Source: Macrostomum lignano (taxonomy: Eukaryota). From it: a stretch of 64,000 nucleotides of DNA. The position numbers and the translations under genes are program-made. This document shows, piece by piece, positions 12,111-53,120 of this stretch (position 1 is its first letter; every line of letters begins with the position of its first letter). The notes beneath the pieces are model-generated. The model did not search any database, had not been told where the DNA came from, and saw only the letters and a program-made list of their open reading frames with translations. Where the stretch lies: contig NIVC01000870.1 in the NCBI GenBank assembly GCA_002269645.1, positions 186,001-250,000 on the forward strand. The letters are read 5' to 3'.

Positions 12111-12254
12111 GAAAGGACAGTGTTTATTAGGTAGTTTTAACAGTGGTGAAATTTCTCTGCCGGTTTGATTAGATTCCTGGCCCGAGCGATAAGCATCTGG
12201 TGTTCTTGAACTCGCTGCACTTTTGGAATAAATGTTTTTATTAATTCACTGCAG

Positions 12255-13235: not shown

Positions 13236-13843
13236 GGCGAAATCCCATTAAATCCACCCATATTATCCCTGACAGAATCAGAAAAAAGGGGGGACGCACT
13301 TGCTCTGAAAACTTCGAACATAATCCTCCTAAATCGATCCATATTATCCCTGACAGAATCAGAGCATAACAGGTGTCCTACATAATCCACTGACATCCAC
13401 CCATAGCATCTTCGAAACAATAAGAAAATAATCTGCATTCTCCCCACATTCAATTCGCAACGCGAAACCAGATCCCTAAGACTTTAAATCATCAGCGCAG
13501 GGTGCTCATCCTCCGAAAAAAATAAATTCTCGATAAAATTGCTTCCAATCGTCTCCAGGTTCTTATTACAAAGCGCACGATCCTAATTACAGGAGTAAGT
13601 ACCAATGCAAACTAGAATGCAGTGAGTACATGAGAAAATATTGGACCGACCACACAATAAATGTCCCTAATATTAATCTAGCTCTCCAAAGACACTGGTT
13701 TCTTAAGTATGGAGTAACCTACGTAAAAGATTACGACAGCTACTATAACTTTGCAGAAATCATTAAGCAATTGTATTTTTTTCTCACATTCTCTCAGTGA
13801 TCAACGTCAATACAAACTTCACCGTTGAAATCAACACCCATCC
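13236..13843 (-). mobile_element. Inverted second copy of the Polinton-like end (penton 3' tip plus subterminal region)
   Basis: Its reverse complement matches about 50110-50760, including GGTGTTGATTTCAACGGTGAAG of the penton gene and the 81-bp repeat. Confidence 0.85.
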
Positions 13844-13910: not shown

Positions 13911-14309
13911 CTAGACCTTCTTGATTCCTAGGATCTTCCCGCCCTGTGAGGCAGGAGCAGCCGGAGGACCGGAGACGGTCACTGTCTGGCGCGAGCTGCC
14001 AGCCGATGTTGTGACCACCGTCGAAGCGGGCGTTGTCGGGATAGAGACGCCCACGGTGGCCTGGCTTGCAGCTGCAGCATCAGCAACAAAGCTGCGAATG
14101 CTGTCGAGGGTGGTGGCTTGACTGCGCAGCTGGTTAGCCATTCCAGCCACAACAATCTCTAGCTTGGCCACCTTAGCATCGACTCTGTCGACCTTGTCCC
14201 TAACCTCTTTGGTGAGGGTTAGGAGCTCACTCTCTTCGTCCACATCAACGGGAGGGTACTCCTCAATGTGGCGCTTGACACCACCTGGCTGGGTCCGCAC
14301 CCCAATCCT
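13911..14309 (-). other. Unassigned ORF/exon: coiled-coil followed by an Ala/Ser/Thr/Pro-rich tail
   Basis: 129-aa ORF with heptad-like LTKEVRDKVDRVDAKVAKLEIVVAGMANQL; GC-richer than its flanks. Confidence 0.35.
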
Positions 14310-14409
14310 AGAGAAGATCCTGTCCTCTCTTGGTGTGCCGGACGGTTGCCCTCCAAAGAGGAAGGTCTGGGCAATACGATTTTAAGCACATAACAAAACG
14401 TACAAGCTA

Positions 14410-14742: not shown

Positions 14743-15414
14743 ACCAGGAGGTCAGAGTTGCAAGTGTGTGTGATAAATATGAAAATATAAAAATATACAT
14801 ATATCTGTGAGTGAGGGTGTTGAGGGTGAGGGCATGTGGGGGGCATTGGCATGTGGAATATTTCACAGAACACAGATTTTCCGGATTTTTTATACTTTTT
14901 AAAAAGGAGGGTGCCCTCACCCTCATGCCCTCACTCATTTTGAAAATCACTAAAAAGAAGTGAAAAATGACTAAAAACAGGTAAAAATGGTCTGAAAACA
15001 GCGATTTTTTGTAATTTTCAAAAATTTAGAAAAAGTGCATTTTTCACGATTCCAGCTCTAAAACCATGAGAAAAGTTGGATTCACGGGTCAATTCAATGC
15101 AATTTCAGGTATATACAATATGAAAGTGTCATCCAATTAAACGATAGTAAATTTTTTATATATAAAATGGCCTTCAGTAAACCAATATTTCTTGGAAATG
15201 CTTTAGATATTCAGTCAGCTATAACAAAACTACCACCCATCTTCTCCACAGGAAAATATCCTGGCGAATTTCATATTCCAGGGTATTCTTTCGCAAGCCA
15301 ACAGCTCTCAATGCTGATGATGTATCAGATCCCCGTAACGTGGCACATTTTTGTCTATTTTTAGAACTAGAAAAAATGAATGAAGCAAACACAAAAGACT
15401 CTCAGACACATGAC

Positions 15415-18272: not shown

Positions 18273-18448
18273 ATCAACATAAAAATGGCTGTCACGATAA
18301 AAACAAAACAGAAGTTAAATTGATACATAGAGCTTATATATAATATAAAAAGCAAAAGGAAAACTTTTGTTACCTTTAAATTGTATTATATACATAGAAC
18401 TAACCAAAAATTGAAATCGTCAGAAATACATTTTAAATTACATTTTTG
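18273..18448 (+). repeat. Left copy of the 176-bp direct repeat flanking the LINE (right copy 20792-20967)
   Basis: ATCAACATAAAAATGGCTG...AAATTACATTTTTG, identical by eye on both sides. Confidence 0.95.
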
Positions 18449-23753: not shown

Positions 23754-24086
23754 TTTTTCAAAGGGTAAAGACCCTGTGCTGATGATTTAAAGTCTTAAGG
23801 ATCTGGTTTCACATTGGGAATTGAATGTGGAGAGAAGAATGCAGATTATTTTCTGATTGTTTTGAAGATGCTATGGGTGGATGTCAATGGATTATGTAGG
23901 ACACCTATTATGCTTTGATTTTGTCAGGGATAATATAGATAGATTTAGGAGGATTATGTTTGAAGTTTTGGGAGCAAGTGCAACCCCCTTTTTTCTGATT
24001 CTGTCAGGGATAATATGGATGGATTTAATGGGATTATGGAGGATATTAAAAAAATTGTCCCAAAAAGCCCCTTCATGCATTCTACT
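23754..24086 (+). mobile_element. Third, more diverged copy of the Polinton-like terminal region
   Basis: Matches about 50435-51068 with fewer 81-bp units and ends at the same ...ATGCATTCTACT. Confidence 0.85.
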
Positions 24087-30674: not shown

Positions 30675-32921
30675 ATGTCCGACAACGGGGACAACCACGC
30701 TGCAGCGTCATTGGCTGACGGAGATGCCGTCGGGCCAGGTCAGGACGCAGATGATGCCGGCGAGCAGCCAGCAGGCGCAGCTGCTGTCGCCGCGCCAGCT
30801 CCCAGTGAGCACTTCTTGCTGACTCAAACCTTAGCCTCTCTTCACCGGATGCTCGAAGAGCGTCTCGCCGTTTCCTCGCCGTCAGCGCCAGATTCCTTGC
30901 CGCCTGCGAAGCCAGATATACGCCTTCGCCCTCCAATAGCTTATCAGCCGAAAATGAACTTCGATACGCTGAAGGTCCAGCAGTCCACCCTGGAGCGCAT
31001 AGCCGAATACGATTTCACTGTCCAGTACCGTCCAGGCGTTGATCACGTGCCTGCTGACGCTCTTAGTAGACTACCAAAGTTCAGAGCTGACCACTTCGAC
31101 TGTCCGACGTGCAGCCAGATTCCAGAATTCAAGGGGAAGTTCCCGAACCAAGATCCAAAGCCCCGGCGTATGCCCCCCTCTAGGGAGCTGCGCCAGGTGT
31201 GTGTCCAGACCACGGGCATCAGCGTCGCGTGTCAGACTGACACCGATGCCCCGGCCGAGCCAGCGCCGAATGTCCGCGCTACTGTTAGTAGTGCTGCTCC
31301 TAACCCAGAGACTCCCGGACACGATACTGAATCCAAGATACCACCTGAGCTCATCTGGGCCCAGAATGCCCAAGACTCTTGTGTTGACATGGCGCCGCTG
31401 ATTGCCAGTGTCCAGGGCAAGGCCGCGCCATTGTCCAAGGCCGAACTGCAGGGTTGTAGCCGGGAAATGCGCTCACTCTGGGCTCAATTCAACGACCTTG
31501 AAGTGGTCGAGGGTCTCTTGTACCTAGCCAAATCTTCCAAAGCCAAAACTGCCAACAGGCGCCTAGTCGTGCCTGAGACCGCAGACGTCAGTCATCTGGT
31601 CCTCCAGTATCATGGCCAGTTGAACCATTGCGGTATCACCAAGACGATGGCCGCCCTGAAGGCACGCTTCGTCATTTCCGACTTAGATACTATAGTCAAG
31701 GGGGTCCTGGCCGAATGCACCGTTTGCGCTAAGACCAAGAAGTCAAAGCGTAAGCTCAAGGCCCCTATGCAGCCAGAACTGTCCGGCTACCCGAACCAGT
31801 TTGTCCACGTGGACCACGCAGGTCCGTTCGAAGAGTGTGACGGGTACAAATACCTGCTGGTTATGATCGACAGGTTCACCGGGTTTGTCGAAGTAGTCCC
31901 TGTTTCCGACGTCAGCGCAGAGACCACTGCCACAACCATCTTGACTGAATGGGTTGCCAGGTATGGGGTGATGGAGCAGTTGGTATCTGATAACGGAACT
32001 GCCTTCATCAACAGCACCATGACAGAATTGACTAGACTCTTACAAATTGACATGGGTCGGATCACAGCCCGTCGCCCTCAGGCTAACGGTAAAGCTGAGA
32101 GGATGATCCAGACGGTGAAAGCCCAGATTAGAGCTATCTGTCTTGAGAGACAATGCGACTGGCCTCTCGCCAGCCGCCTGGCCGCCATGTCAATCCGTGC
32201 CACAGTAGCCGAATCCACCGGATTTACCCCAGCCAAACTTTTCTTCGGGCGTGAATTCGATTTACCGCTCGATCTCTGTCACAATCCACCACCAAATGAG
32301 CACTACCAGCCGGAGAGATACGCCCACCAATTGCATCGTACGTTAGTCGAAACCTCTGCCTTAGCCCGCCGCACTAGGGGCAAAACCCAGGAAAGGCAGA
32401 AGAGGTATTACGACCGCCGCGCTCTCCGCGCTGAGTTCCACGAAGGAGAATTAGTCTGGGTCTTGAACCCGAATCACAAGGGCATTGAACCCACTGTGTG
32501 GTTGGGGCCATACCGAGTAGTGCAGCGCTGCTCAGAGCGGACTTACCGGTTAGTCCCCGAGTATGGACTCCTAAACCCAGCAGATCGGGTGCCCAATCCA
32601 CGCCACAACATTTACAACATTGATCGTCTCAAACCGTGTATTAGACAGCCCACTTACCAAGACGTAGTTGACCGGTATGGTGAGGCCACCCATGCCAGAT
32701 CGCCTGCACCTAGTGCGAACCCGCCCAGCGGACCCACGAGCGAGCTTAGCCTCGTCACCATTCCCCAGCCACCTTCTGCCCGGCCGGAGAGCCCACGCAG
32801 AGAACCAGGGCCAAACCCACCACCGCCAGCTTCAGGCGCCTTTGAAGAGGGGGCGGGAGCTGAAGCTGAAGAAGTCCAACCATTCGCCGAAGCTGGCGAT
32901 GCTGTGGCCATTGAGGGATAG
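30675..32921 (+). CDS. Gag-N-terminus / RNase H tail / integrase fusion protein
   Basis: EYDFTVQYRPG..ADALSR, HHCC (YHGQLNH...CTVC), HVD, SDNG and KAER with exactly 35 residues between the last D and E. Confidence 0.88.
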   Translation: MSDNGDNHAAASLADGDAVGPGQDADDAGEQPAGAAAVAAPAPSEHFLLTQTLASLHRMLEERLAVSSPSAPDSLPPAKPDIRLRPPIAYQPKMNFDTLKVQQSTLERIAEYDFTVQYRPGVDHVPADALSRLPKFRADHFDCPTCSQIPEFKGKFPNQDPKPRRMPPSRELRQVCVQTTGISVACQTDTDAPAEPAPNVRATVSSAAPNPETPGHDTESKIPPELIWAQNAQDSCVDMAPLIASVQGKAAPLSKAELQGCSREMRSLWAQFNDLEVVEGLLYLAKSSKAKTANRRLVVPETADVSHLVLQYHGQLNHCGITKTMAALKARFVISDLDTIVKGVLAECTVCAKTKKSKRKLKAPMQPELSGYPNQFVHVDHAGPFEECDGYKYLLVMIDRFTGFVEVVPVSDVSAETTATTILTEWVARYGVMEQLVSDNGTAFINSTMTELTRLLQIDMGRITARRPQANGKAERMIQTVKAQIRAICLERQCDWPLASRLAAMSIRATVAESTGFTPAKLFFGREFDLPLDLCHNPPPNEHYQPERYAHQLHRTLVETSALARRTRGKTQERQKRYYDRRALRAEFHEGELVWVLNPNHKGIEPTVWLGPYRVVQRCSERTYRLVPEYGLLNPADRVPNPRHNIYNIDRLKPCIRQPTYQDVVDRYGEATHARSPAPSANPPSGPTSELSLVTIPQPPSARPESPRREPGPNPPPPASGAFEEGAGAEAEEVQPFAEAGDAVAIEG

Positions 32922-33199
32922 CCACAGCCAAGCACAGACACTGCCACCAGCCGCAGCCAAGACAGCTCAGAGTCGCTGTACACGGCTTCCTTGGGGGATC
33001 CTTCCCTGCCGGCCTCCGAGCAAATAGAACCACCTGAGCCTGTTGCGAACCCAGCCGCTGCGCAAGCAGTTGAACCGCCAGTCCCGGCTGCTGAACCCAG
33101 ATCCAGATACGGGCGCCCCATCCGCCCACCTGTCAGGTACCGGACCTGTCAAGTGTCCGACCTGCTCCAGCAGTGGGGAAGCAAGCACTAATTAGTCAC

Positions 33200-33680
33200 G
33201 TCCCGGGCAAGGCGTTAAACTACCTCCTGTGGCACCTGCCGGCCACAGGTCTCTGCGGCACCTGTAGACCGCAAGCTCGCGCCCCGGGAGAGGCGTTAAA
33301 CTACCTCCTGTGGCACCTGTAGACCGCAAGCTCACGCCCCTGGCAAGGCGTTAAACTACCTCCTGTGGCACCTGTTGGTCACAGGTCCCTGCGGCATCTG
33401 CCAGCCGCAAGCCACAAAACACAAGCCACAGCTGTTACTCACTGCCAGATACTAAAGTGTGCACAACTTCCACAGCTGTACCAGCCAACAGCCAACCACC
33501 GTAGTCAAGGGGATAAACTGCAGCGATACTACAATTTGATAATATATAGCTGACTAAAATAAATAAACTAAATATACAGCTATAAACCACACAAGCTCGC
33601 GCCCCGGGCAAGGCGTAAAACTACCTCCTGTGGCACCTGTCGGCCACAGGTTCCTGCGGCACCTGTAGACCGCACCAACC
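33200..33680 (+). repeat. Repeated motif with hairpin in the 3' region of element 2
   Basis: Core AGGCGT(T/A)AAACTACCTCCTGTGGCACCTG occurs four times, near 33210, 33291, 33346 and 33611. Confidence 0.85.
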
Positions 33681-34199
33681 CCGACTGCGCCCGGTCGGTA
33701 TTTCCGAAGTCTATGAAATGTACAAGTACGTCCAAACCATAAATAAATAAAACATCAGCATAATTAGCATAATTAGCATTAACATAAATGTGGCGACAGT
33801 ATAAATATGATATTGTCCTAACACAAGAATATAGATAATATCGCAGCAACCAACTCCGACTGCACCTGGTCGGCGTTGCCATAGTCTATAAAATACACTA
33901 CGGCGCCAGAAACATAAATATTATATAAGACATTAGCCTCAACTCAAACTCAAAAACAAAAGAAAAACTGAAAAAGCCATTGAAAACTTGAAAAAATATG
34001 CATATAGGAACATAGCTAGCTCAGCTCATTAGCTAAGTACAGCGCAACGCTACTCAGCTCGTTGACGAGTGCAGCATCGCTTCTCTTTCAAAAATGAGCT
34101 GCAGCTGATCGCCAAATTTCGTAAAGCTCAATAAATATAACCATTAGATAGATATATTTGTGGGGTAAAAGTAAGCAACACATACACACACACCGCACG

Positions 34200-34640
34200 C
34201 ACGCACGCTCTGTTGGGCGCTTCTGCGCCATCTTCTGCCTTGGCGCGCTGCGCCGTTCTTCTGCCTTTGGCGCGTGGCGCCGTCCTCTGCCTGGCGCGTT
34301 GCGCCGTCCTCTGCCTGGCGCGCTGCGCCATCCTCTGCCTGGCGCGCTGCGCCATCCTCCGCCTTGGCGCGCTGCGCCGTTCCTCTGCCTGGCGCGCTGC
34401 GCCGTTCTCCTGCCTTGGGCGCGCTGCGCCATTCTCTGCCTTTGGCGCGTGGCGCCATCTTCTGTTTTTGGCGCGTGGCGCCGTTCCTGCCTTGGCGCGC
34501 TGCGCCGTCCTCTGCCTGGCGCGTGGCGCCGTCCTCTGCCTGGCGCGTGGTGCCGTCCTCCGCCCTGGCGCGCCGCGCCGCGTCTCCTGCCTTGGGCGCT
34601 CCTGCGCCGGTTGCCTCCTGCCTGTCTGTTGGCGCGCCGC
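34200..34640. repeat. GC-rich minisatellite inside element 2 (mirror copy at about 15570-16015)
   Basis: TGGCGCGCTGCGCCGTCCTCTGCC-like units of about 23-26 bp. Confidence 0.9.
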
Positions 34641-35136
34641 GCCGTGTCCCGCCGCCCTTGACGCTTGTCGTCGTTTGCCCGCAGTTGTCCGGACTGTGCC
34701 TCTGTTCCGTGCCTCTGCTCTGTTTTCGTTGCCTCATCCACCTTGTCATCCTTGTTCTGTCTTTGCCTCATCCATCGTATCACTCTGCGCGTCCTTTTGT
34801 CGTTTTTTGAGTTCGCGCGCGCCACGCGCTCTGTCATGCGCTACTTCCGTAATCATTGTTATATTTTTGTTATGTTTTTGTAACGCCACCATGTCGTACT
34901 ACTCATGCTCACCGCGTCCTACTGCCCTGTAATATTCTTTTCCTGTAATATTCTGTAGCCTTTGGAATTTTGTAATTTTGTCCGGTAATCACATACTCCT
35001 ATATACTAACTCAAGCTCCCTGTAATTCGTTCTACTGTAATTTCATAAGCTGCAGTCACGTTGTGTTTTCCTTGCCGTCACCCCGCGTGTTGGTTTTCTT
35101 TAGCGTGACCCTATCCTTTTTCGGAAGGGAGGCGGG

Positions 35137-40755: not shown

Positions 40756-43619
40756 AGTTGATTCTACATGATTGAGCAGTACAGACTCCGTTAATTCCTG
40801 GCAATTTGTCCAGACAGCCAGACCCAACGTTGACTCAGCAACTACAGCTATTTGAAATTCTGATTGATACATAATTTGAATATATATGTGGTTATAGTTA
40901 AGGTAGCTGCATGAGCTAGCGAATGCATTTTTTATTCCAAGGTTCTGTGCAGTTGTTGTAGCACTGTATGATTTACTGCCGGTGGGTTGTGAGACAAGCA
41001 ATGTGTACGGGTCTCTTAAACTCAAACAAAATAACGACTTTGCGATAGGAGGGCCCAGATAGAGGAGTTGGGAAAGCGATAAGCTATAACTGAGACTGGT
41101 ATCGAAACTAGTGCGCATATTTTTGTGCAGTTGCTAAGCTGTTTTGTCAAGCACATCCTGCTCTCTATGGAGATCATAAAACACTTAAAAGGCAGCTTAA
41201 TTGCTATGCGCATACGGTAATTGGCAATGCTCATCCAGCATTGTGTAAGTATACGAGTGGGCAAACTAGATCGCAAAATGCTATTGAAATCATGCACAAT
41301 CAAGAGTAGCATACCAATTAATAAAGACCATTGGTCGAAAATGTGTCCTGTTTACCGGTACATGCATGTCTCTATAGCCTTGCATCTTAATCTGTTCATT
41401 CTCCGCTATTCTTGTTTCCCAAAACTTCCTTCCTGACTTCAAATATTTTTAACTCGTATGCACGCAGCAGCAGCTGTTTTCAGTTCTGCAATTTCCAAAT
41501 ATCACCTGCGATAAGCCATTCAGGCTAGCGGTTCTGAAACTTTCCCACTATACCCCCTTCCTTTCTCACACTATCTCACACTATCTCTGCTTTCATTTCT
41601 CATCTCATCTCTATTCTCTCTCTTCTCTCGTCTCGATCCTCTCTCCTATCTATTTCCTGTCTCATCTCTTCCCTCTTATTTCTAATCTCTCTTTTTTAAC
41701 ATCTCTCCTCTCTTCTCTCAACTCTTCTCCCTACTTTCTCTCCTCTACTCTCTTATCTCTCTTCTCTACTCTCTTCTCCCTGTCTCACCTCTCACCTCTC
41801 ATCTCTCTGCTCTCTGTTCTCTGCTCTGCCATCTCTCTTCTCCTTTCTACTCTCTCCCTTTTCCATTTTCTCTTTCCTCTCCTCTCTCTCTCCCTTCCCC
41901 TCTCTCCCTGTCTTCTCGATTCTCCCCCCTCTTATCTCCTCTCTCCCCACTCCATTTCTCTCTCCCATTGTCTCTCCTCTCTGCTCTCACATATTTCTCT
42001 TCTCTCTCTTCTCTCTACTCTCACATCTCTTGTATCTGCTCTCTCATCTCTCCTTTCTTCTCTTTCATCTCTCCCATCTCATCTCACCTCTCTCCCCTCT
42101 ACTCTCCTCTCTTCTCTCTCCTCTCGTATCCTCTCTTCTCTCTGCTCTCCTCTCTCATCACTCCTCTCTCCTGTCTCATCTCATCTCTCTCATCTCTCCC
42201 TTTTCTCACCTCTACTCTCTCCTCCCGTTTCTCTCGCCCCTCTTTTCTCTCTCCCTTCTCTCTCCCCTTCTTCTCTACCCTCTCCTCTCACTTCTCCTCT
42301 CCTCTCACAGTAAATGTATGAAATCTTCCGATGGAATAACCAACGGAGTTTTTTTGACGAGGATCTGCCGGGAAAAGTAATATGAAGTTAAATGAATTCG
42401 TGTTTACAGTATATTACCTTCTTTTCAAAAACCTTCCAATTGCAAAACTATCTAGTAAAAATCCTAAAAAGCATTTTCTTAGGCAAAAACATCTAGAATG
42501 TTAGTTAAATCAATTTAGCTTTTGCATTCAGTCATTGCGAGGTATTTTTGGATGTCATTTTTACTTTTCAGTGAAAATTTGCTTTTACAATAAAAAAAAT
42601 CAATTCGATATGTTGTCCCTTCAGTTTTTACTGGGCCCCAACTGCCCCCCCCCATCCTGAAACCTCTGGACACGCTCCCACCCTCCCCCTCTCCCTCCCT
42701 ATCTTATCCTAGCCACTTACGAATATCCTATACTAACTCCTATACCGATCCTGTTTTATAATATTCGATTTTTTCTTCCAAACATGATGTAAATGTAATT
42801 ATAATTCCTCTCTGGTTTCTGTAAGACAGTTGACTTTCGAACTCAATCAATGTTTGCCCCATACAATACTACATGTACATTTCATCAACTTAATGGCATC
42901 AGTTTAAGCACATTTGTAATTTGTAACTGACATGCGTTAATTCCATGGGAAGCGTGCAACAATTACGAAGTCCACGGGGGTCTGTGTTAGATTCGAGTTA
43001 GTGTAAACTAAAAACATTTTTTGTTTTTATTAACTAGAAGCTGTGGCAAGCAGAACCGATATCGATCGACAGGCTTTATCAATCGAGATAACAAAATGAC
43101 TGGAATTCATTAGGATTCTAAGTAAATATGTTTAATTGCCACATTAATTCACTTGGAAGTTGGAACTAATATGATTGGTGGATGACGAAATGACTCTCTT
43201 CAGGTAGTGCATGCCAATTAAGATGACGAAGTGACCCTAGTCGATGTGGTCACCCCAGACACCCCAGACGATAAAATGGCAGATGACGAAATTACTAGGA
43301 ACCCCGAGGGACACTGGGGAGAACAAAAATAGGTAAAAAAACGGCGGATAACTTAATAGCTACGGTATATTTAGTGACATTGCAAGCTTTAATCGCAGTA
43401 GCAGTGGTCAGGGCAGAAAGTTTATTGCATTAGATTGTTGAATTTGGTTAAAACGTGCCCATTGCCGAAGGTCGTAAGTTTTTGAATTTTTTAACTTGGA
43501 TGATAATTTGGTCTTCGGACCATATGTTCAAGGCGCAAGGGTATAAACTTTAAAAATGTTTGTTTTAAAATGTATTAGACAACGTGGTATCACCAAATCG
43601 TGTGCGCACCTTTGTCAGA

Positions 43620-44940
43620 AAGAGTACGGGAGTAGAAAATGCACGCGCTACGCAGCTACATGTACGCTCGTGGGAGGAATCGACAGTGGGGTATTCCATA
43701 GCAACTGGCAATGAATCAGCAATCAGCAATGAAAAAGAGCAATGAGCAGTGAAAATTGAGCAGAAAATTGAGCAGTAAAAAGGTGCTTTCTGGGGGGGGG
43801 GGGGCAATATGGCAAATTAAACCGATCGAGGGACTCTGTGACATCCACCAGCCTTTTGTTTTTGACGAGGTTTTTCCCCTCCTCTTTCGCTCAGGCCTGG
43901 CATGGAAGCGGCTTGCTTCCGCGTTCAGGTCTGCTGGTGAAGGACGGATCCCCGCTGCAGCTTTTTTTGCAGGGGAAGTGGGTAGTTGGCTCCTGGCTAA
44001 GCGCCAACTACCATACCGACAGCCCATAGTTGCAACTGGTACCACACGGGTTCTCGAGGGTCGCTGCTGCGGGGAAGGGCTCGGGCGTCGGCTGTCAACC
44101 CGACCTGGCGTTTGTGGCCCAAACCTGCAGCCGGACCCCCGCCCCATGATCCTGCAGAGTGTTGACTGTGGGCCTGCCAGAGCCTCGCCTGGGGTAATCC
44201 TGGGGTAAGACGGCAACCCAAAGCTTCTCTGCTGTTTACCGTAGCAGAGGGTAGCTCCTCGGAGCTGGCTGGGGGGTATATCCAGCCTCCGCGCGGTTAC
44301 GCATCCCACTTTTCTACATTTCAATTTTCTCCATTCCAGCCTACTCTGCATGGATACTTCTAAACCACCTTACACGGCTCGGTAACCGACAATTCCCGCG
44401 GCCCCGCGGTGAAGCGGGGGCAAAGTAAGGATAGTGTTCAGCCCCTCGAAAGGGGTTGACGGGTACGCACCTGTGATGGCGCGGCAGATGCTGCCCTGCA
44501 GCTGGTAAAGACGCTCACGGGCGGTCTTCTGCTCCAGCGCGCTAGACCAGATGAGGCTCGCGTATCTGATGCTGGGCCGGATGATGCCGGTGTAAATCCA
44601 ACGGACCGTTCTTGGCGAGAGACCCCAAGTCAGCTTGATGGCTCTGCGCAACTGGGCGAAGCAGCGTTTTGCTCGACCAATGGCGTTTCAAGGTGCTTCG
44701 TCCAGCGCAGGTCATGCGTTAGTCACACCGAGGTATTTGACCTTCTTGAAGGGGATGTTCCTGCCATAGACAGTTGAGGTTTTGCATCTCCCACGCTCGG
44801 CGCTTGGGGAAGACGAGAGCGACAGTCTTCGTGACGCTTATTCTAAGGCCATGCTGCGTGGCCCAATCAGCCGCTTATTAGCGAATTGCTGCATCAGGTT
44901 GCGCAGGGTGGCGGGGTCGGGTCCGCTGACGACCGCGGCA
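43620..44940 (-). pseudogene. Decayed LOA/Lian-like LINE fragment of a second family
   Basis: [43 protein letters not shown] and [11 protein letters not shown], paralleling the LINE at 18449. Confidence 0.8.
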
Positions 44941-45104
44941 AAAAGCTCACTCTCCAAAAATGTTGCACTTTCTGTCTTAAGGAGGGAGCTACTGCTTAAT
45001 CTAATAGCCACATTTTTGAGCTGCTCACTTCTAAGTTTAGAATTTTATCAAGTAGTCCTTCCACCTGCTGGCAATTTCTATCGCTTACGCAATAGCACAA
45101 AACA

Positions 45105-45390
45105 ATTGTCTCTTTTATGCTACTTCTTATCCAATACTGCCCCCTACTCAGTCATGTATTGTGCAGTTGAAAGATGGTAGTTTCTGCAAAGTAGTTCATT
45201 TTCTGAATGGCACCAATATTTTAGCTGATGTAATTTTTTTAGATGTCTGCAATTTACAAGACTTTTTGAATCCGTCCAATGTACCTATTGCTGCTGATAT
45301 ATTATGTTTAGCAAATACTTTCTTGTTTATCTGCCGCCCATCTTCTAACACCTGCACTATTCCAGTGGGATGTAATTTTCTGCATTAGTT
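45105..45390 (+). pseudogene. Possible CACTA-like transposase downstream remnant
   Basis: VQLKDGSFCKVVHF and DFLNPSN resemble the C-terminal region of such transposases; heavily decayed. Confidence 0.3.
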
Positions 45391-45949
45391 TGTTTCAGTC
45401 AATAATATTTTTCCCGATAAGGACTTGTGTCTCGTTATACTGGATTCTTGCTGCCATGAATATGGCTAAATTTGGGATGACTTGAAGCTGAGTAGGAACT
45501 GTTAAAACTGAGTAAGCACTACTAAGAATTGTATCTGTTGCAGATCATTTTCAAAATATAGATCACTTGAACCAATTGCCATACAATAATTCGCTTATTG
45601 CTTGCTAGTTGTGTATCTTGTTTGATTTTTGTTGACTGTTGTATAGTAAGAAAAAAGTAAAAATACGGGAAAACATTTTGTATGTATTCAAATTTCAATT
45701 TTAATGACTTTTAACGTTTCACTTTCTGTCCAGCTTTAATTTGAGTGTTATATAAATATAGTAATAAAATGCCATCGTGCATATTGTACTAATTGTACAT
45801 AAACTGCTCAATAGTAATCAAGTCTGGTCAGAAAAACATCCTCTCATGTGTTTATTGTCTTCCTTACATTAATTTTCTAATCTAAAAATTCAGAACATCG
45901 GCAAAAGCCATACATGCTACTTAGAGTAAACTGTGTGTCTATCCACCGA

Positions 45950-46174
45950 AAGTAATTGCAATCGGATTGCGCCAGAAATTGCATAAATTACAATTCAATT
46001 GGTCTAAATTGCAAAACTTACAATCCGCGTGTGCAAAATTGCTAAAACTGCAATTTCGATTGTAATCAGCTTATCCAAAATTGCAATTGATGTGCACGCA
46101 ATTGGCAATTATTGTACAATTTCGGCAAGTAGATTGCAATTTTCGACAATTTCTTGTAATTTCGGTCGACTAGG
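45950..46174. repeat. AATTGC-rich repeat that truncates the Polinton-like segment
   Basis: Repeated AATTGCA/TTGCAAT motifs ending ...CGACTAGGG at the junction. Confidence 0.55.
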
Positions 46175-46731
46175 GAATGCTTTCTCCCCTTTTCTGGCTC
46201 ATCTGGTTGGGGTAGAAGTTTGGTCTTTGGATCCACCTGTGGATCTCCATAGGTGAACACTTTGATGTTCTGCCATTTTTCATTGTCTTTGAGGTGCTTT
46301 GCATATTCAGCAGCTACAATTTCTGGGTTACTGGGAAGGTTTTGTTGGTTATTAAAACATTGAATAATGTCCTCTTTGATTAATGTGGACATTAATCCAA
46401 TAATGTCCACACTGTCTGGATTTGGGGCCAGCGGAGCCAGCGGGGCCAGTGGAGGTTGAATCTCTTGTTTAGGTGTTACAGTGTCCTTTATCTTTTTGGC
46501 TGCTGTGGCTACACTGCCGGCCGCTTCGGCAACGTTCTTGATGTTCTCTTTGTTCTCTCCAATGACCTTAAAAATCTTGGCCCCCTGAGCGATCAAATCG
46601 GCAAGGCCATTCCCAGAGCGTTCTTTTCTTGGATAGTGGCCTGCAGGGAAAAGTCCAGATCCACGTTTAATGAGATTAAGTTCCTCTTTGTCATAGTATT
46701 TGTCAATGTCTTTTTCGAAAATAAGTGGCAT
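46175..46731 (-). CDS. Polinton-like small protein with GxG motifs (3' end replaced by the adjacent repeat)
   Basis: KRGSGL and RSGNGL followed by amphipathic LADLIAQGAKIFKVIG; starts 2 bp after the upstream stop. Confidence 0.6.
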
Positions 46732-46733
46732 TT

Positions 46734-47966
46734 TTACTTGAAATAAATTATTTTTTGTTGAACCGCGAAAGCAGAAGCTCTCGCCCTCTTATCGATGTAT
46801 TTTCTCTCAAGCATTTTGTCTAGGATGTTGACAAATTCTTTTCTATTCTCATCTTTCATTCCGGTCTTTGCCGCTCCTAGAAGAACCGCTACTCGCTTGT
46901 AGAATTCAGGCATGCCTTTTCCAGTTGAAGGCGGTTGGTCTTGAGGTTGTGGAGTTGGTTGGGCTTGTGGCTGCTGGGGAGGTGATGCAAAAGACTGCTC
47001 ACTTTCAGAGATGGAACTGTCATGTGGCGCCTGTCTTTGTTGAGGTGTGAAAACTCTTTGCTTGATTCTGTTCATTCGATCTGGAGAGTGTTGTTCTAAG
47101 TGTTGCCAGTCTGTTGGGTGATCATTTTTATATTTAGCTACTTTCAAAGGGTCTAACTGCTCGAGTTGACTGAGTACTTGTTCTTCTGTGGAATGTTGCT
47201 GCTGTGGTTGTGGTTGTTGTTGTTGCTGTTGTTGTTGTTGTTCTAGATATTTTATGACTTCCGCCTGATCTGGCAAATCGAACCATTGTTTAAAGTGGTT
47301 GTACTTTTTGAATCTAGTCAGGTTGACAGCGTTATCATACATAAGCCTCAGGACTTCTGGGGCCTTTAGTATTTCTATATCTCTAGCAAGAGCAAAAGTC
47401 ACTAGATCTCTATAGTTCTTTAGCTGTTTGTCCGAGATTCTCTCTTGGTTCTTGGTCATAAAATTCAGTAAGGTTTCTGTGAAAGGAATGCTCTTAGTTT
47501 CCGAGCCTTTGACAACAGAAATATGTTTCTTATTTATGTCGATATAATATTCCACTGGTTCATTATAAATATTTTTTCTCCACATACTTATTCCAAATAC
47601 ATATTTCCCATCATGTTCTACACGCTCTACTGGTCCAAAAATGTTATCTGTCACTTTTAGTTGCTGTTGTTGTGGTTGTGATTGTTGTGGTTGCGGTTGT
47701 ATCTGTGGTTGCGGCTGTATCTGTGGTGCTTCTGGAATTTTGCCCAAAGCCTTTTGCACCTGGGTTTCCTGTATGTCGTCGATAGTTTCTTTGACCTGAT
47801 CAATATTTTTCTTAGCTTCTCCATACCCGGGTTTATGAAACTCTGTGGCTGCTTGGACAAACTCATTGTAGGATTGTTGCTCCTTATTTATTAGCCCGGT
47901 AACTCGTTTCTCTGCTTGTGCTAGCTTCTCCAATTCAGATATCTGCTGTGTACTTTTTCGCTTCAT
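46734..47966 (-). CDS. Polinton-like conserved core protein, 410 aa
   Basis: Intact ORF. The C-terminal TGKGMPEFYKRVAVLLGAAKTG..EFVNILDKMLERKYI resembles the RLxLLxGxxxAG..E..IL motif I associate with Polinton/adintovirus ORFs; contains polyQ tracts. Confidence 0.6.
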   Translation of the reverse strand: MKRKSTQQISELEKLAQAEKRVTGLINKEQQSYNEFVQAATEFHKPGYGEAKKNIDQVKETIDDIQETQVQKALGKIPEAPQIQPQPQIQPQPQQSQPQQQQLKVTDNIFGPVERVEHDGKYVFGISMWRKNIYNEPVEYYIDINKKHISVVKGSETKSIPFTETLLNFMTKNQERISDKQLKNYRDLVTFALARDIEILKAPEVLRLMYDNAVNLTRFKKYNHFKQWFDLPDQAEVIKYLEQQQQQQQQQPQPQQQHSTEEQVLSQLEQLDPLKVAKYKNDHPTDWQHLEQHSPDRMNRIKQRVFTPQQRQAPHDSSISESEQSFASPPQQPQAQPTPQPQDQPPSTGKGMPEFYKRVAVLLGAAKTGMKDENRKEFVNILDKMLERKYIDKRARASAFAVQQKIIYFK

Positions 47967-47996
47967 TTCTTATTTTATTTTATTTTTAGTTAAAAA

Positions 47997-49283
47997 ATGA
48001 ACGACCCACTGACACCAGTTTTCTACAGAATTAACAAGCCTATTTTGAGTGATGATAGCACAATCAAAGCGACTCAGGTAAGAGTTCCCAGTCAGGAAAA
48101 TCAGAATGAAACTAATCTTGGTCCTGGCCAAACACTGACATTTACATACAATGGATGTACGTCTTTGGTTAGTGTGCACAGTCTTAAGAGCGGCTTCCAT
48201 ATGAAATTTCAATTCAAGACAAAAGGTGGTGCGGATGCGGCTCGTGTTAACGTTGACAAGCATGATGCGGATGTGGCTCTGATCAGTAACTTTTGGGCGT
48301 ACATGTTCAAGGAGTTTAGTGTATCGAATGGGAGCATAGAGTTGGAGCGAATCGCCAACTTTGGAATTGTCTATGACGCTCATTGTTTGATCGAGAATCC
48401 TGATTTTATTCAGTTGGGAAGTGGTGCCGGTTTTATTGCAGATGAAAAAGAAGGAGACATCAATGACAGTGGCTATAAAAAGAGGAAGAAGAGATACAAC
48501 TATGCATTGCAAGGTGCTGATGATGCTGCTAAGAACCCGCTGTATCGGTCTGTTGATGTATTTGTACCACTGAGATTTATGAGTGGATTCTGTAATACAT
48601 TTAATCGACTGACTAGTAACTTTAGCTACACTTTTAAGATGACTAGAGATGATCGCAGTAGAGTGTTGTGGACTGGGGCGGACCACACAAGGATGGATGT
48701 GAAGCTAACCGGAATTGAGCTGTATTTGGAAGTCATTGAGCCAAATACCGCACTAAAAGCAGACTATCTTAAGGCAATAGAGAAGGACATTGATGTTGCA
48801 TACACAGCCTACATGTGTCGAGATGAGCGAAACGAAACTAGAACAAACATCTGCATCAAAGAGGGATCATGCAGCAATCCAAGGTATATTATTATTAACA
48901 TGAGAAACCCAAATAGCATTATACGCTACATGCATGGAGACGTGCGGTCCATTCAGCATGAAATCAGTGATAATCTTTACCCTGCACTGCCACAAAATGG
49001 AAATTTCAGTCAGAACAAGATTAGCAAATTTTACAGCGAGTTGGTCGACTTGGCTGTGAAAGAGAACAATGGAATTGCTATCACTGCTCTTCAATATGGA
49101 ACTCTATATCCGATGTTTGGCGCTGATGTGTCTGCCAGACAAATGCCTACTGATAACAGCCCTGTGAATATCGTGACTAACATTGAAAGGACTACCGCAA
49201 CACCCGTGGACCTGTACATTATCTATGCATTTGAGAGGAAGGTGAAGCTTAACATGATCAACAATTCATCCAGTAAAGTTTAA
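47997..49283 (+). CDS. Major capsid protein (double jelly-roll, hexon-like)
   Basis: Intact 428 aa: DDSTI, FVPLRFMSGF..LTSNFSYTFKMTR, PRYIII and LYPMFGADVS match the pattern of Polinton/adintovirus major capsid proteins. Confidence 0.78.
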   Translation: MNDPLTPVFYRINKPILSDDSTIKATQVRVPSQENQNETNLGPGQTLTFTYNGCTSLVSVHSLKSGFHMKFQFKTKGGADAARVNVDKHDADVALISNFWAYMFKEFSVSNGSIELERIANFGIVYDAHCLIENPDFIQLGSGAGFIADEKEGDINDSGYKKRKKRYNYALQGADDAAKNPLYRSVDVFVPLRFMSGFCNTFNRLTSNFSYTFKMTRDDRSRVLWTGADHTRMDVKLTGIELYLEVIEPNTALKADYLKAIEKDIDVAYTAYMCRDERNETRTNICIKEGSCSNPRYIIINMRNPNSIIRYMHGDVRSIQHEISDNLYPALPQNGNFSQNKISKFYSELVDLAVKENNGIAITALQYGTLYPMFGADVSARQMPTDNSPVNIVTNIERTTATPVDLYIIYAFERKVKLNMINNSSSKV

Positions 49284-49295
49284 ATATTTTTTTTT

Positions 49296-50186
49296 GTGAA
49301 AAAAATGGAAGCGATTTCTGAAAGACTAAATAATATTGTTTCTCACTCTAAGGAGAGCATTCCTATTACAATAACTGGGCGAATTAATGACTCAAACGGG
49401 ATATTTGTTGAAAAATTAGAGCAGGCGATTCGCCTGGATCCAGGTGCTAATTACCATGTCTATCTTAATGACTTCACTGGTTGGTCAAACGTTCCCAATG
49501 TGATGGCAGCAAATAATAAGTTTTATTACAAATGGAAAGGTGCAGCAGCAGAACCTGTGGTATTCCCTGTGAGCACGCAAAGTGTGGATACCTACAATTA
49601 CTTTCTAGAAAACGTTTTTACTAAAAGAGGCCATTTTGAGACACCTGATGCGAGTAAGCCAGATAAAAAACTGTTCCCTGTCAAACTATCCTATGATCTC
49701 ACTGTAATGAGAGTGGTCATGCAAGTTCACAAAAATGCGGAGGTTGAGTTTAAAGATGACACTTGGTATAGGGAATAAGGATTCGAGAAGAAAGTTTATA
49801 AGGCAGAATCCGCGGCGCGGACTGTCACTCAAGCAACGGGGGCTGTTATCATGGCCCGGGAAAGTGTACGCGGTTTGTTCTTAGCACCCAATATAGCAGA
49901 CATTGTAAAGGGTTTGAATATTCTAATCAGAACTAATCTCAGTCTTGATTGGGTATTTAAGGGAAAGCGAACTAATATTTTGTACAACATCTCCAACTCT
50001 GTAGCTGGAGGACAGATGGTGGTAGAGAAACCAAATCCAGTCAAAAGAGTTGTATTGAGTAATAAGGAAATTCACGAGATTGTGCTACAGTTTGAGACTG
50101 AAGATGGGGTAGGTGTTGATTTCAACGGTGAAGAGTTTGTATTGACGTTGATCATTGAGAGAATTTTAGAAATCACAATTGCCTAA
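49296..50186 (+). pseudogene. Minor capsid (penton-like) gene with one premature stop
   Basis: IRLDPGANYHVYL..WSNVPNV..NNKFYY and VDFNGEEFVLTLII. ORFs 49296..49778 and 49851..50186 are in the same frame, separated by TAA at 49776-49778. Confidence 0.8.
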
Positions 50187-50639
50187 TGATTTCTGCAAAG
50201 TTATAGTAGCTGTCGTAATCTTTTACATAGGTTACTCCATACTTATGAAACCAGTGTCTTTAGAGAGCTAGATTAATATTAGGGACATTGATATCAATGC
50301 CGGGCCAATATTTTCTCATGTACTCGCTGCATTCAAGTTTGCATCGGTACTTACTCTTGTAATTAGGCTCGTGCGCTTTGTAATAAGAACCTGGAGAGAC
50401 AGCTGGAAACATTTTTTATTAAGAATTTATTTTTTTTCAAAGGGTAAGGACCCTGCGCTGATGATTTAAGTCTTTGGGATCTGGTTTCGCTTTGCGAATT
50501 GAATGTGGGGAGAAGAATGCAGATTATTTTCTGATTGTTTTAGAGATGTTATGGGTGGATGTCAGTGGATGATGTCAGTGTCAGTGAGCATAACAGGTGT
50601 TAGTGGACACCTGCTATGCTCTGATTCTGTCAGGGATAA

Positions 50640-51020
50640 TGCTCTGATTCTGTCAGGGATAATATGGATGGATTTAGGTGGATTATGGAGGATGTTTTGT
50701 GAGCGAGTGCGACCCCCCTTTTTTCTGATTTTGTCAGGGATAATATAGATGGATTTAGGAGGATTATGTTCGAAGTTTTCGGAGCAAGTGCGACCCCCCT
50801 TTTTTCTGATTCTGTCAGGGATAATATAGATGGATTTAGGAGGATTATGTTCGAAGTTTTCGGAGCAAGTGCGACCCCCCTTTTTTCTGATTCTGTCAGG
50901 GATAATATGGATGGATTTAGGTGGATTATGGAGGAGGTTTTGTGAGCGAGTGCGACCCCCCTTTTTCTGATTCTGTCAGGGATAATATAGATGGATTTAG
51001 GTGTATTATGGAGGAGGTGA
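50640..51020. repeat. 81-bp tandem array in the Polinton-like terminal region
   Basis: CAGGGATAAT recurs with the marker A at 50659, 50740, 50821, 50902 and 50982. Confidence 0.92.
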
Positions 51021-51134
51021 AAAATTTTAAAATTAATTTGTCCCAGAAGCCCCCTCATGCATTCTACTGCTCATAAATTCACGTTCTGTATGCGAAATAA
51101 ACATGCGGAATAAATTAATGATTCATCAACAGTA

Positions 51135-52450
51135 TTATCGATTATCATCAGTAGGTACATGTATCATTGCGCCCTGCCATGGAATGGCACCATTGGGGCT
51201 GACGAAGAAGTCCCTCAGCAGCATCTGTTGCTCCCGAGCGGAGGCGCTGCTTCGATTTCCACCCAGATTCCGGGCTGGCATTACCCCGACGCTGCCTGTC
51301 ACGGTGGATCTCCATGAACCCTCCTGTACCTGGCCGGTGGGCAGTTCCTGGTCAACACTTCCAGGTGGCATGTAGGACCGAGCTGCTGTAATGTTGGCCT
51401 CGTCCTCTATTCGCATGAAGTTATGCAGTACGAATGCGCACCGAATAAAGGCCTCAACGTGATCGATTCTCGCTATGACAGGCCGCAGAAAGAGTCGCCA
51501 GCGAGTCACCAGGATTCCAAACGCATTCTCAATTGTGCGTCTTGCTCGAGACAGCCGGTAGTTGAACACTTGCGTCTTGTAGTCCAATGGTACCATTCCG
51601 CCGCGCCCAGGGAATGGGCGCATGAGATAATTCTTCAGCGGGAAAGCCTCATCACCGAAAATTGCAAATGGCATGACGAGGCTGCTGCCAGAAATGCAGG
51701 AAGGCTCCGGGACTTTCACCGATCCAGACTCCAATCCAGCGTACAAGGCTGAACGTGAGAAGACTCCAGCGTCTCCTTCTCTCCCTGCGCTGCCACTCTC
51801 TATGTACGTGAAGATGTAGTTACTGTCGCACATGGTGAGTACCAGTGAGCTGAACTGTTGCTTGTAATTGAAGTACTGGGAGCCGGTGTTTCTTGGACAA
51901 TGAACTTTGAAATGCTTGCCGTCAATTGCACCGAGGCAGTTCGGAAAATGCCACTTTTCCCAGAATCCACCAGCGATTGCTTTCCATTCTTCTGCAGATG
52001 CAGGAAACTTTAGATATGTTGACGCCAGCTTGTCGTAGATGGCAATCGCAGTCTCGAACACGACCCCTGACACAGTAGAGCGTCCTCGGCCAAATCGAAA
52101 CGACAAGTCGGCTTGGCTGCAACCCGAAGCCAGGTAGCAAAGCGTCATCATTAGCTTCTCCTCTGCCGGAACGGCCTCTCTTCTTGCACATGGCCTGGAG
52201 AGTTTGGTTGCAACCAGTGAAAGCAGATGCTCAAACCGAGCCGGGCGCATGCACATATACTTGAAGTACATCTCCTATCTCTATCTCGCAGATGTGGGAT
52301 CAATCCGGCAAACTCGCCAAGCTCTTCTCTTCGTTGATGACTCGGTCTCCGCCACCATCGCCTAGGGCGGCGGCCTTGCCTGATCAGCCTACGATGTTGC
52401 AGTATCGTTACGATTGCCAGTAGCAGTAGCTTCTTGGCTCGTGAAAGCAT
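51135..52450 (-). pseudogene. PIF/Harbinger DDE transposase with a single 1-bp frameshift
   Basis: GAIDGKH, GDEAFPL, RRTIENAFG. The N-terminus MLSRAKK..RRWW is in another frame, joined near 52270-52275. Confidence 0.92.
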
Positions 52451-52733
52451 GTTTGAAATCTGAAAGCTGGTCACGGCTTTCTGGTCAAGATTTCTTAGAT
52501 TGAAAACGCCCTGTCCGAAGCACAGATAGGGCTAGCACTAGACTGAATTACTTTATATACTCGTAACAGTGGCCAAGGGTCAAATATTGCCTATTATCTT
52601 CGCGGGTTAAATTGAACTGCATGGCGCTGCATCTATTTGAGGCCGATAGTAGCACCCGCTAGTAGTGGTCGCGCTGAGCTAGTAGATTTCCGAAAATCAG
52701 CTATTAGCTGTGAGCGTCAGCTATTTGCGGAAA

Positions 52734-52746
52734 TGTGAACCAGGCT
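52734..52746 (-). repeat. Harbinger-type terminal repeat
   Basis: AGCCTGGTTCACA on the minus strand, flanked by TTA at 52747-52749. Confidence 0.6.
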
Positions 52747-52859
52747 TTAGAGTGCAATAAAACTGCACGAGCCCAGTAGATTATCGGAGCACTTCGTAGC
52801 AAGCTAATCAATGCCACCCGCCGTCTCCGAGCTGCCACTCCATTCATCACTGCTAAATA

Positions 52860-53120
52860 GAGGCTTTTCATATTACCAATTCCAGAATCAGAATCGGTTC
52901 GGATCTTCCAAGAAAAACAGCAGTATAACTATTTAATTCTGGTGAATGTTTGACTGCTTTAACAACCTCACTTAGCACAATTTTCCACTTTCTTCTTGGC
53001 GATTGTCATTCAATAATAAAAACTTTATAGCACGTATCTCCCTCTAGTTATGGAGACAAAAAGTTATACTTCACAAATTGGTTCTGGTTCTGGAACCAGA
53101 ACAAGCAATATGAAAAGGCC
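52860..53120. mobile_element. MITE copy 2
   Basis: Near-identical to 27540-27807; flanks AATA(G)/AATA(G). Confidence 0.85.

What the first reader, a model, noticed from the sequence alone, without database searches (positions are those of the whole stretch)
46175..51068. Endogenous Polinton/adintovirus-like virus end with near-intact virion module
Seen: four intronless genes packed with 2-, 30- and 12-bp gaps in a divergent layout; intact 428-aa capsid-like and 410-aa ORFs; a penton-like gene with one nonsense change; an 81-bp tandem array; and a terminus ...ATGCATTCTACT at which two independent copies (51068 and 24086) both stop matching. Known: Polintons encode a double jelly-roll capsid and penton and have AG-starting TIRs. 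Inference: a recently active virus-like element of a probably uncharacterised lineage. Its pPolB, ATPase, integrase and protease are not in this window.
Basis: partly seen in the sequence, partly recalled or inferred. Interest (0 to 1): 0.75.

Follow-up and report, generated by a model that had tools for sequence, protein, structure and literature searches.

The report
Decayed end of a Maverick/Polinton element
This is the broken 4.9-kb end of a Maverick/Polinton, a known kind of virus-like jumping element in animal genomes; it belongs to a many-copy family whose capsid comes from a branch with no named relative in the searches made, but the kind of element is well known.

Summary
47997-49283 encodes a double jelly-roll capsid and 49305-50186 a penton (folds, Pfam, profile match to the penton of a 15.6-kb polinton-like contig). 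The end at 51068 reads 5'-AGTAGA inward, 5 of 6 letters of the Maverick motif. It is a true terminus: a second window copy and public contigs change flank there. Corrections: the '221-aa gene' is a chimera of a small amphipathic protein and the middle of the packaging ATPase. It lacks the Walker A part and is cut at 46176, so an ATPase remnant is in the window. The 410-aa ORF is out of frame at its end, the penton stop is private to this copy, and the gap before the penton is 21 bp, not 12. Summed contig depth in three runs is tens to over 100 times that of the flanks, so the family is many-copy. The capsid sits in a 9-member clade, at most 28% identical to the other listed hits. Its nearest sampled group carries rve integrase and an A32 ATPase. 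No full element, second TIR, TSD or polymerase could be tested. New member of a known kind.

The parts
46176..51068 (.). Remnant of one arm of a Maverick/Polinton element (4.9 kb, 40.8% GC); left end is a break inside the ATPase gene, right end is the true terminus
   Evidence: Depth step at both ends in runs X1, X3, X9; gene content; GC
46176..46410 (-). Middle piece of an A32-like genome-packaging ATPase, without the N-terminal Walker A part and cut just before Walker B; in frame with the small protein upstream
   Evidence: Best of 348 six-frame pieces of the window against a 3-sequence ATPase profile (E 0.006; match 46198-46398 to profile 75-138); 13.4 bits, reached by 0 of 1000 shuffles (823 scored, best 6.7); pairwise 23% over 73 aa; hhalign E 0.0037, probability only 9
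46474..46731 (-). N-terminal 86 residues of a small protein, homologous to the small ORF beside the capsid gene of the nearest sampled group; position of pm in vertebrate Mavericks (assignment by gene order only)
   Evidence: 32% over 96 aa, E 7e-11 to L003:5459-5944; gene order in PMC8097293 section 7
46734..47966 (-). 410-aa Q-rich ORF, probably PZ-like; last ~14 residues out of frame in this copy (break near 46777)
   Evidence: 4 homologues, 37-43% identical, conserved C-terminal block; indel listed; PZ match to L004 inconclusive, E 0.23
47967..47996 (.). 30-bp spacer between the divergent start codons, 93% A+T, with a T-tract and an A-run before the capsid ATG
47997..49283 (+). Major capsid protein, double jelly roll, 428 aa, open frame
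   Evidence: Pfam PF21738 E 2.3e-5, under the cut-off; homologues P0001 and P0007 pass it; Foldseek and VIA-align
49305..50186 (+). Penton (minor capsid) gene with one in-frame stop at codon 158 (49776-49778) and an ~18-residue insertion relative to homologues
   Evidence: Read with X at the stop; 13 homologues; fold matches mavirus, Sputnik and adenovirus pentons; hhalign probability 98.4 to the L004 penton
50187..51068 (.). Non-coding terminal region, candidate terminal inverted repeat (partner arm not in the window)
   Evidence: Shared with two other window copies; depth about 1.3-3 times that over the genes in X1, X3, X9
50643..51015 (.). 81-bp tandem array, 4.6 units here, about 1.5 units in the two other window copies
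   Evidence: joints that skip or repeat 79-271 bp in public contigs
51063..51068 (-). Terminal motif, 5'-AGTAGA read inward; 5 of 6 letters of the (AGT)2 Maverick end
   Evidence: motif from PMC8097293 section 7; 6 contigs of X14 go on with unlike sequence after 51068, and an X9 contig begins at 51069
23754..24086 (+). Solo terminal fragment of the same family, ending at the same terminus with another flank
   Evidence: 75-93% identical pieces; alignment
13241..13838 (-). Third fragment: last ~25 penton codons to the middle of the array; terminus missing
   Evidence: 81% over 658 columns

Best explanation
This is a decaying, left-truncated copy of a many-copy Maverick/Polinton (polintovirus, adintovirus-type) family in an animal genome. 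SHOWN: capsid and penton folds; an ATPase remnant; a true terminus with a Maverick-like motif; many similar copies in four runs from four studies; lesions in this copy. INFERRED from the family's known biology: an intact ancestor of roughly 13-25 kb was copied by a protein-primed polymerase starting at the AGT end. An rve integrase inserted it, here just past the 3' end of a Harbinger transposase gene. It could make an icosahedral particle from capsid and penton, filled by the ATPase. The PZ-like, small-protein and ATPase genes form one module and capsid plus penton the other, on opposite strands and pointing apart. After insertion this copy lost everything beyond 46176, lost the ATPase N-terminus by an in-frame deletion, and gained a stop and a frameshift. 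It cannot move or package DNA by itself; at most it could supply capsid protein.
For: Capsid: all 23 Foldseek PDB rows shown are double jelly-roll capsid chains, best Sputnik MCP E 1.8e-10; the top 9 VIA rows are too, best Z 10.3, rmsd 6.3, 310 aligned; top BFVD row is an Adintovirus sp. protein. Penton: mavirus penton E 6.9e-8, then Sputnik and adenovirus penton base; Z 9.9, rmsd 9.7, 222 aligned; probability 98.4 to the penton of L004, a 15.6-kb contig with capsid, A32 ATPase and rve integrase. The nearest sampled capsid group (P0033; 28-row clade, SH-aLRT 98) lies on contigs with rve integrase (E 2e-13), A32 ATPase (E 5e-9), a weak pX-like hit (E 0.0019) and a homologue of the small protein. 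The order 410-aa ORF / small protein / ATPase matches the pz-pm-atp adjacency of vertebrate Mavericks, and modules pointing apart are described there for the cane toad. Terminus. Many copies: summed depth 25,000-232,000 inside against 800-1,400 on the flanks in X1, with a like step in X3 and X9; the ATPase piece, small protein and capsid have like depth in X1 (75,000, 63,000, 69,000). Decay: the stop position reads otherwise in all contig depth of X1, X9 and X14 and 99.5% of X3; 4 of 5 listed capsid differences change the residue, and at 3 of these no homologue shares the window's residue.
Against: No polymerase, integrase, protease, second TIR or TSD could be tied to this family: no genome is held, and no contig of the family was found in IMG/VR or JGI. 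The capsid model is weak (mean pLDDT 51) and the fold scores are middling. The ATPase match is short and weak on its own. The PZ label failed to reach significance. The polymerase of reference L004 rests on motifs read by eye; Pfam and the PDB sequence search did not confirm it. Run X14 shows no depth step. Summed contig depth is not a copy number. The lesions could in part be assembly errors rather than mutations.
Confidence: 0.78

Rival explanations
1. The typical member of this family is itself a short non-autonomous element: it keeps the virion genes and ends but has a dead ATPase (small protein fused to an ATPase without Walker A) and no polymerase or integrase, and is moved by a helper Polinton.
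For: No high-depth loose end or joint at the fusion point (about 46410-46470) is among the rows shown. All close capsid homologues lie on contigs of at most 5.8 kb. Earlier unchecked notes of this scan describe capsid-only mini-Polintons in other genomes (leads only).
Against: One search shows only 24 of about 1000 loose ends and 15 of 34 joints, so the absence means little. One X9 contig continues left of 46176; its 30 shown letters, read by hand in the ORF's frame and assuming they abut the junction, give a Walker-B-like motif (hydrophobic residues, then two aspartates) where the L003 ATPase has one. Three records of a ~85%-identical copy stop aligning at 46474-46486; two run on for 214 and 534 letters unlike the window, as expected if other copies are not fused. 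Short contigs are expected for repeats. This copy has other private lesions.
Confidence: 0.12
2. The capsid module is Polinton-type, but the element is a Polinton-like virus with another replication or integration module (helicase-primase, tyrosine recombinase), so it is not a Polinton in the strict sense.
For: The replication end is missing here. Swapping of replication and morphogenic modules is reported as common (abstract of 10.64898/2026.10.13.758929; passages of PMC11296320). No polymerase lies on the three sister-group contigs, which are 5.2-8.8 kb fragments.
Against: The AGT-type end is the described Maverick end. The sister group has rve integrase. Insertions at several different flanks end at the same base.
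Confidence: 0.07
3. The capsid gene has been kept by the host for a function of its own, or the stretch is a free virus joined to host DNA by misassembly.
For: The capsid frame alone is open over 428 codons.
Against: Private non-synonymous changes at conserved sites. Many copies with different flanks. Presence in runs of four studies of the same organism label. No intron or host-family match.
Confidence: 0.03

Closest known systems
Mavericks/Polintons of animals (Barreat and Katzourakis 2021, PMC8097293; section 7 and passages read)
   Same: Intronless double jelly-roll capsid and penton, A32-like ATPase, two gene modules on opposite strands, a small gene between the ATPase and a PZ-position gene, an AGT-type end, and mostly degraded copies.
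   Different: End reads AGTAGA, not AGTAGT. Penton lies next to the terminus with no pw gene between capsid and penton. 81-bp array in the terminal region. pPolB, integrase, protease, paired TIRs and TSD are not present in the window.
Adintoviruses (Starrett et al. 2021, PMC8502044; section 8 and passages read)
   Same: Tightly packed virion module with hexon-like capsid, penton, packaging ATPase and small accessory genes; endogenous degraded copies in animals. Top BFVD fold hit is an Adintovirus sp. protein.
   Different: No PLA2X, GasderminX or pX domain was detected in the window ORFs. Alpha or Beta class cannot be given without PolB. Four short family motifs were not found in the one supplement file held as text.
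Unnamed metagenomic group of P0033 (loci L001-L003)
   Same: Same 28-row capsid clade; homologous small protein and ATPase; A-run before start codons.
   Different: Capsid only about 24% identical. Gene order differs: small protein, capsid and ATPase lie in tandem on one strand.
Mavirus and Sputnik virophages
   Same: Best solved-structure matches for penton and capsid.
   Different: Fold likeness only (10-14% identity); it reflects which structures are solved, not membership.

Membership tests
Maverick/Polinton | Double jelly-roll major capsid protein | tested here: met
Maverick/Polinton | Single jelly-roll penton (minor capsid protein) | tested here: met
   gene broken in this copy
Maverick/Polinton | A32/FtsK-like packaging ATPase | tested here: met
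   Remnant only, weak but above controls; no Walker A in this copy
Maverick/Polinton | 5'-AG(T) terminal motif | tested here: met
   5 of 6 letters of (AGT)2 at a terminus fixed by different flanks
Maverick/Polinton | Paired terminal inverted repeats | tested here: inconclusive
   No partner arm in 42800-53000 or elsewhere in the window, as expected for a truncated copy; the depth rise over the terminal ~950 bp fits two arms or solo ends
Maverick/Polinton | 6-bp target site duplication | not testable with these tools
   Other end missing; no matching junction in the window; no genome held
Maverick/Polinton | Protein-primed family B polymerase | not testable with these tools
   None recognised among the window's ORFs of 150 aa or more (read by eye); no full element of the family found
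Maverick/Polinton | rve integrase | not testable with these tools
   Not in the remnant; present in the nearest sampled group
Maverick/Polinton | Adenain-like maturation protease | not testable with these tools
   Not in the remnant; no full element found
Maverick/Polinton | PZ protein | tested here: inconclusive
   hhalign to the like-placed L004 ORF aligns only the C-terminal motif, E 0.23; the label rests on gene order and on my recall of the motif
Adintovirus Alpha/Beta classes | PolB class and accessory genes (PLA2X versus GasderminX/Cupiennin) | tested here: inconclusive
   No PolB; no Pfam hit for the small protein or the 410-aa ORF; no named reference sequence was compared
Virophages (mavirus, Sputnik) | Virophage-clade capsid and dependence on a giant virus | not tested
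   Only fold likeness seen; capsid homologues belong to PF21738

The most novel reading that the evidence does not exclude
The family is a very high-copy, helper-dependent virion-module element of an unnamed polintovirus lineage: most copies carry capsid, penton, PZ-like gene and a small protein fused to a Walker-A-less ATPase, with genes packed head to head across a 30-bp A+T spacer and A-run start contexts that suggest virus-type rather than host promoters. It would then spread in an animal germ line with the enzymes of a helper element or virus.
Probability: 0.1. Interest if true: 0.6.

Novelty: new member of a known kind. Interest (0 to 1): 0.3.

Why it matters
As it stands it adds one divergent, unnamed capsid branch and one many-copy animal family to a large, known class; degraded Mavericks are the norm in animal genomes (PMC8097293, passage). 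Its use is as a probe: the capsid is at most 28% identical to listed hits outside its 9-member clade and falls under the Pfam cut-off, so surveys with standard profiles may miss it. A host with this many similar copies, and laboratory runs over several years, would be a good place to ask whether animal Mavericks ever make particles, which I recall as still unshown.

Tried and rejected
Full elements or context of the family itself: none in IMG/VR with the capsid alignment, the 410-aa alignment or the terminal motif; none in JGI metagenomes. Sister-group queries P0033, P0035, P0038 and the L003 ATPase found nothing in IMG/VR. Alignments A4 and A2 had no stretch conserved enough to search with. 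None of five window proteins is in the protein collection by exact sequence. The 410-aa family has no convincing Pfam, NCBIfam, PDB-sequence or Atlas match. The terminal 150 nt do not fold better than shuffles (z 0.72), so no hairpin end. Expression: no RNA holder is listed on record; X14 is only guessed to be RNA and contigs cannot give levels, so nothing is concluded. A 10-bp inverted match between 43235 and 46166-46175 might mark a transposon abutting the left break, but has no clear TSD and could be chance. Start-context idea: all 4 window ATGs have a T-rich tract and 2-6 A before them, but L003 and L004 genes do too, so it is not special to this lineage. Two paper searches listed 3 papers each, none by title on animal Polinton promoters (listings only). 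Earlier findings: none for this genome or this sequence. Four short motifs of the family were absent from the supplements held as text for PMC8502044 (1 file, about 4.0 million characters, perhaps cut) and PMC11071296 (6 files). Exact motifs find only close relatives, and other supplements and Repbase were not seen, so the lineage may already be catalogued.
Full report
Setting. The window is repeat-rich eukaryotic DNA with retroelement-like ORFs (read by eye) and a Harbinger/PIF-type transposase at 51135-52271 (Pfam DDE_Tnp_4, E 1e-22). An animal host is my inference from this content and from the family found. No genome is held, so everything outside the 64 kb comes from public runs and protein collections.

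Observation. The ORFs, the 30-bp divergent spacer, the penton stop, the 81-bp array and the shared terminus are there. Four details are wrong. The penton starts at 49305, 21 bp after the capsid stop. The 410-aa ORF leaves the frame of all 4 homologues about 14 residues before its end, where contigs of all 4 runs list an indel (33-100% of depth). The 221-aa ORF is not one gene. A third partial copy lies at 13241-13838.

Capsid. The 428-aa protein hits PF21738 at E 2.3e-5, under the cut-off; homologues P0001 and P0007 pass it. The word-index search gave 9 relatives among 3872 candidates, 43-76% identical, all unnamed or 'hypothetical' and on contigs of at most 3.7 kb. The model is weak (pLDDT 51). 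Still, all 23 Foldseek PDB rows shown are double jelly-roll capsid chains (best E 1.8e-10), the top 9 VIA rows likewise (Z 10.3, rmsd 6.3, 310 aligned), and BFVD ranks an Adintovirus sp. protein first and a MELD virus protein fourth. The Atlas, queried with homologue P0001, lists a PF21738 cluster first, with a recognition value under its bar.

Lineage. The profile search found 536, 174 and 23 representatives at E 1e-3, 1e-10 and 1e-30. Among the listed hits of 380 residues or more, identity falls from 42-76% (8 proteins) to 28% or less. A quick IQ-TREE tree of 99 of 159 candidate rows (those of 380-520 aa; shorter and longer ones dropped) puts the window in a 9-row clade (SH-aLRT 100, stem 0.64) inside a 28-row group (98). 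The tree has no named reference and no root, so 'unnamed lineage' means only that these searches gave no name.

Penton. Read with X at the stop, the gene has 13 relatives among 419 candidates, 39-64% identical. The model (pLDDT 68) matches mavirus penton (E 6.9e-8), Sputnik penton and adenovirus penton base (VIA Z 9.9, rmsd 9.7, 222 aligned). The alignment matches the penton of L004 at probability 98.4. Matching contig lengths suggest that capsid, penton and 410-aa homologues share contigs in relatives (3702, 3512, 3560 and 2695 bp); this is inferred from lengths only.

Context from relatives. P0033, in the 28-row group, lies on three JGI contigs of 5.2-8.8 kb. They carry a weakly pX-like ORF, a small protein, capsid and A32 ATPase in tandem, and L003 also an rve integrase. 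A more distant capsid, P0058, lies on a 15.6-kb IMG/VR contig (L004, 13.9 kb fetched) with penton, A32 ATPase, rve integrase and a long ORF with polymerase-B-like motifs that I read by eye; Pfam and the PDB sequence search did not confirm the polymerase.

The fourth ORF. Residues 1-86 match the small protein of L003 (32%, E 7e-11). Residues ~112-178 match the middle of the ATPases: best of 348 six-frame pieces of the window, E 0.006, and 13.4 bits against at most 6.7 in 1000 shuffles, of which 823 were scored. I cut the shuffled piece after seeing the likeness; the six-frame scan does not have that bias. The match starts after Walker A and stops just before Walker B. Family-level depth begins in the bin that holds 46176, and one X9 contig has a loose end there whose shown letters read, by hand, as a Walker-B-like motif in the same frame. 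So the left end is a break inside the ATPase gene, and the ORF's last 36 codons are flank DNA. The order 410-aa ORF, small protein, ATPase equals the pz-pm-atp adjacency of vertebrate Mavericks (PMC8097293 section 7). The direct PZ test was inconclusive.

Terminus and copies. Read inward, the end is 5'-AGTAGA, 5 of 6 letters of the common Maverick motif. Three lines fix it at 51068: the copy at 24086 with another flank, 6 contigs of X14 that go on with unlike sequence, and an X9 contig that begins at 51069. Twenty of 24 listed runs, from 6 studies with one organism label, hold the stretch or part of it. In X1, X3 and X9 summed contig depth inside is tens to over 100 times the flanks; X14 shows no step. 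The tool warns that this is no copy number; I take it only as a sign of a large family. Of the records laid on 44500-52500, 4614 of 6128 in X1 are at least 95% like the window. The array varies in unit number.

State of this copy. It has a penton stop found in almost no other contig, a frameshift near 46777, loss of the ATPase N-terminus and the left truncation. Four of the 5 capsid differences among the 40 of 360 rows shown are non-synonymous, and at 3 of them no homologue has the window's residue. These may be mutations of a dead copy or in part assembly errors; either way the window copy does not represent the family.

How it works. Shown: structural genes, ATPase remnant, terminus, many copies, decay. 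Inferred from the known biology of Mavericks (PMC8097293; passages of 10.1101/2023.08.22.554363): protein-primed replication from the AGT ends, insertion by an rve integrase with a short TSD, and possible packaging into an icosahedral particle. None of these steps was tested for this family. The main open point is whether the small-protein/ATPase fusion is private to this copy (my reading) or common to the family (about 1 in 10), which would make it a helper-dependent element like the capsid-only mini-Polintons in two unchecked earlier notes.

Papers seen. PMC8097293: section 7 and passages. PMC8502044: section 8, passages and a motif search of one supplement. PMC11071296: motif search of six supplements only. 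10.1101/2023.08.22.554363, PMC11131425, PMC11296320 and PMC11161782: passages. 10.64898/2026.10.13.758929: abstract and outline. Others: listings only. Supplements not seen may hold this lineage.

Verdict. A real endogenous Maverick/Polinton-type remnant; new member of a known kind with a divergent capsid. Strict membership waits on the polymerase, integrase, paired TIRs and TSD.

Noticed in passing
window 51135-52271 (-): Open 378-aa Harbinger/PIF-type transposase (DDE_Tnp_4, E 1e-22); the Polinton terminus sits 66 bp past its stop codon, and contigs cover it with few differences.
   Followed up: partly
window 13911-14381 (-): 156-aa GC-rich ORF with a coiled-coil-like middle (only NPV_P10, E 0.06) between what looks like a mariner end (read by eye) and the third Polinton fragment; origin unexplained.
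   Followed up: partly
window 47967-47996 and starts of all four genes; L003, L004: T-rich tract then an A-run directly before each ATG; 7 of 8 L003 genes checked have TAA or TAAA just before the ATG, which recalls poxvirus late starts (recalled).
   Followed up: partly
window 43235-43244 and 46166-46175: 10-bp inverted match whose right copy abuts the left break of the element; possibly the ends of a 2.9-kb transposon that caused the truncation; no TSD seen.
   Followed up: partly
window 44500-45033: A separate very high-depth repeat in all four runs, with reverse-transcriptase-like remnants like those at 18437-20676 (read by eye).
   Followed up: no
window 15181-17563 and 32654-34932: Two inverted copies of a multi-kilobase repeat with 24-26-bp and 55-bp tandem arrays; one 164-aa frame is identical in both.
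   Followed up: no
window 49800-49870 (penton codons ~166-187): About 18 extra residues in the penton relative to its homologues; not known whether private to this copy.
   Followed up: no
L003 2-2713 (-): The sister group's rve integrase is the C-terminal part of an ORF of at least 904 aa whose N-terminal part resembles the PLA2-like ORF that is separate in L004 (read by eye).
   Followed up: no
window 11578-12123 (-): 181-aa frame that looks like a CACTA-type transposase remnant (recalled likeness; no Pfam hit at E 0.1).
   Followed up: partly
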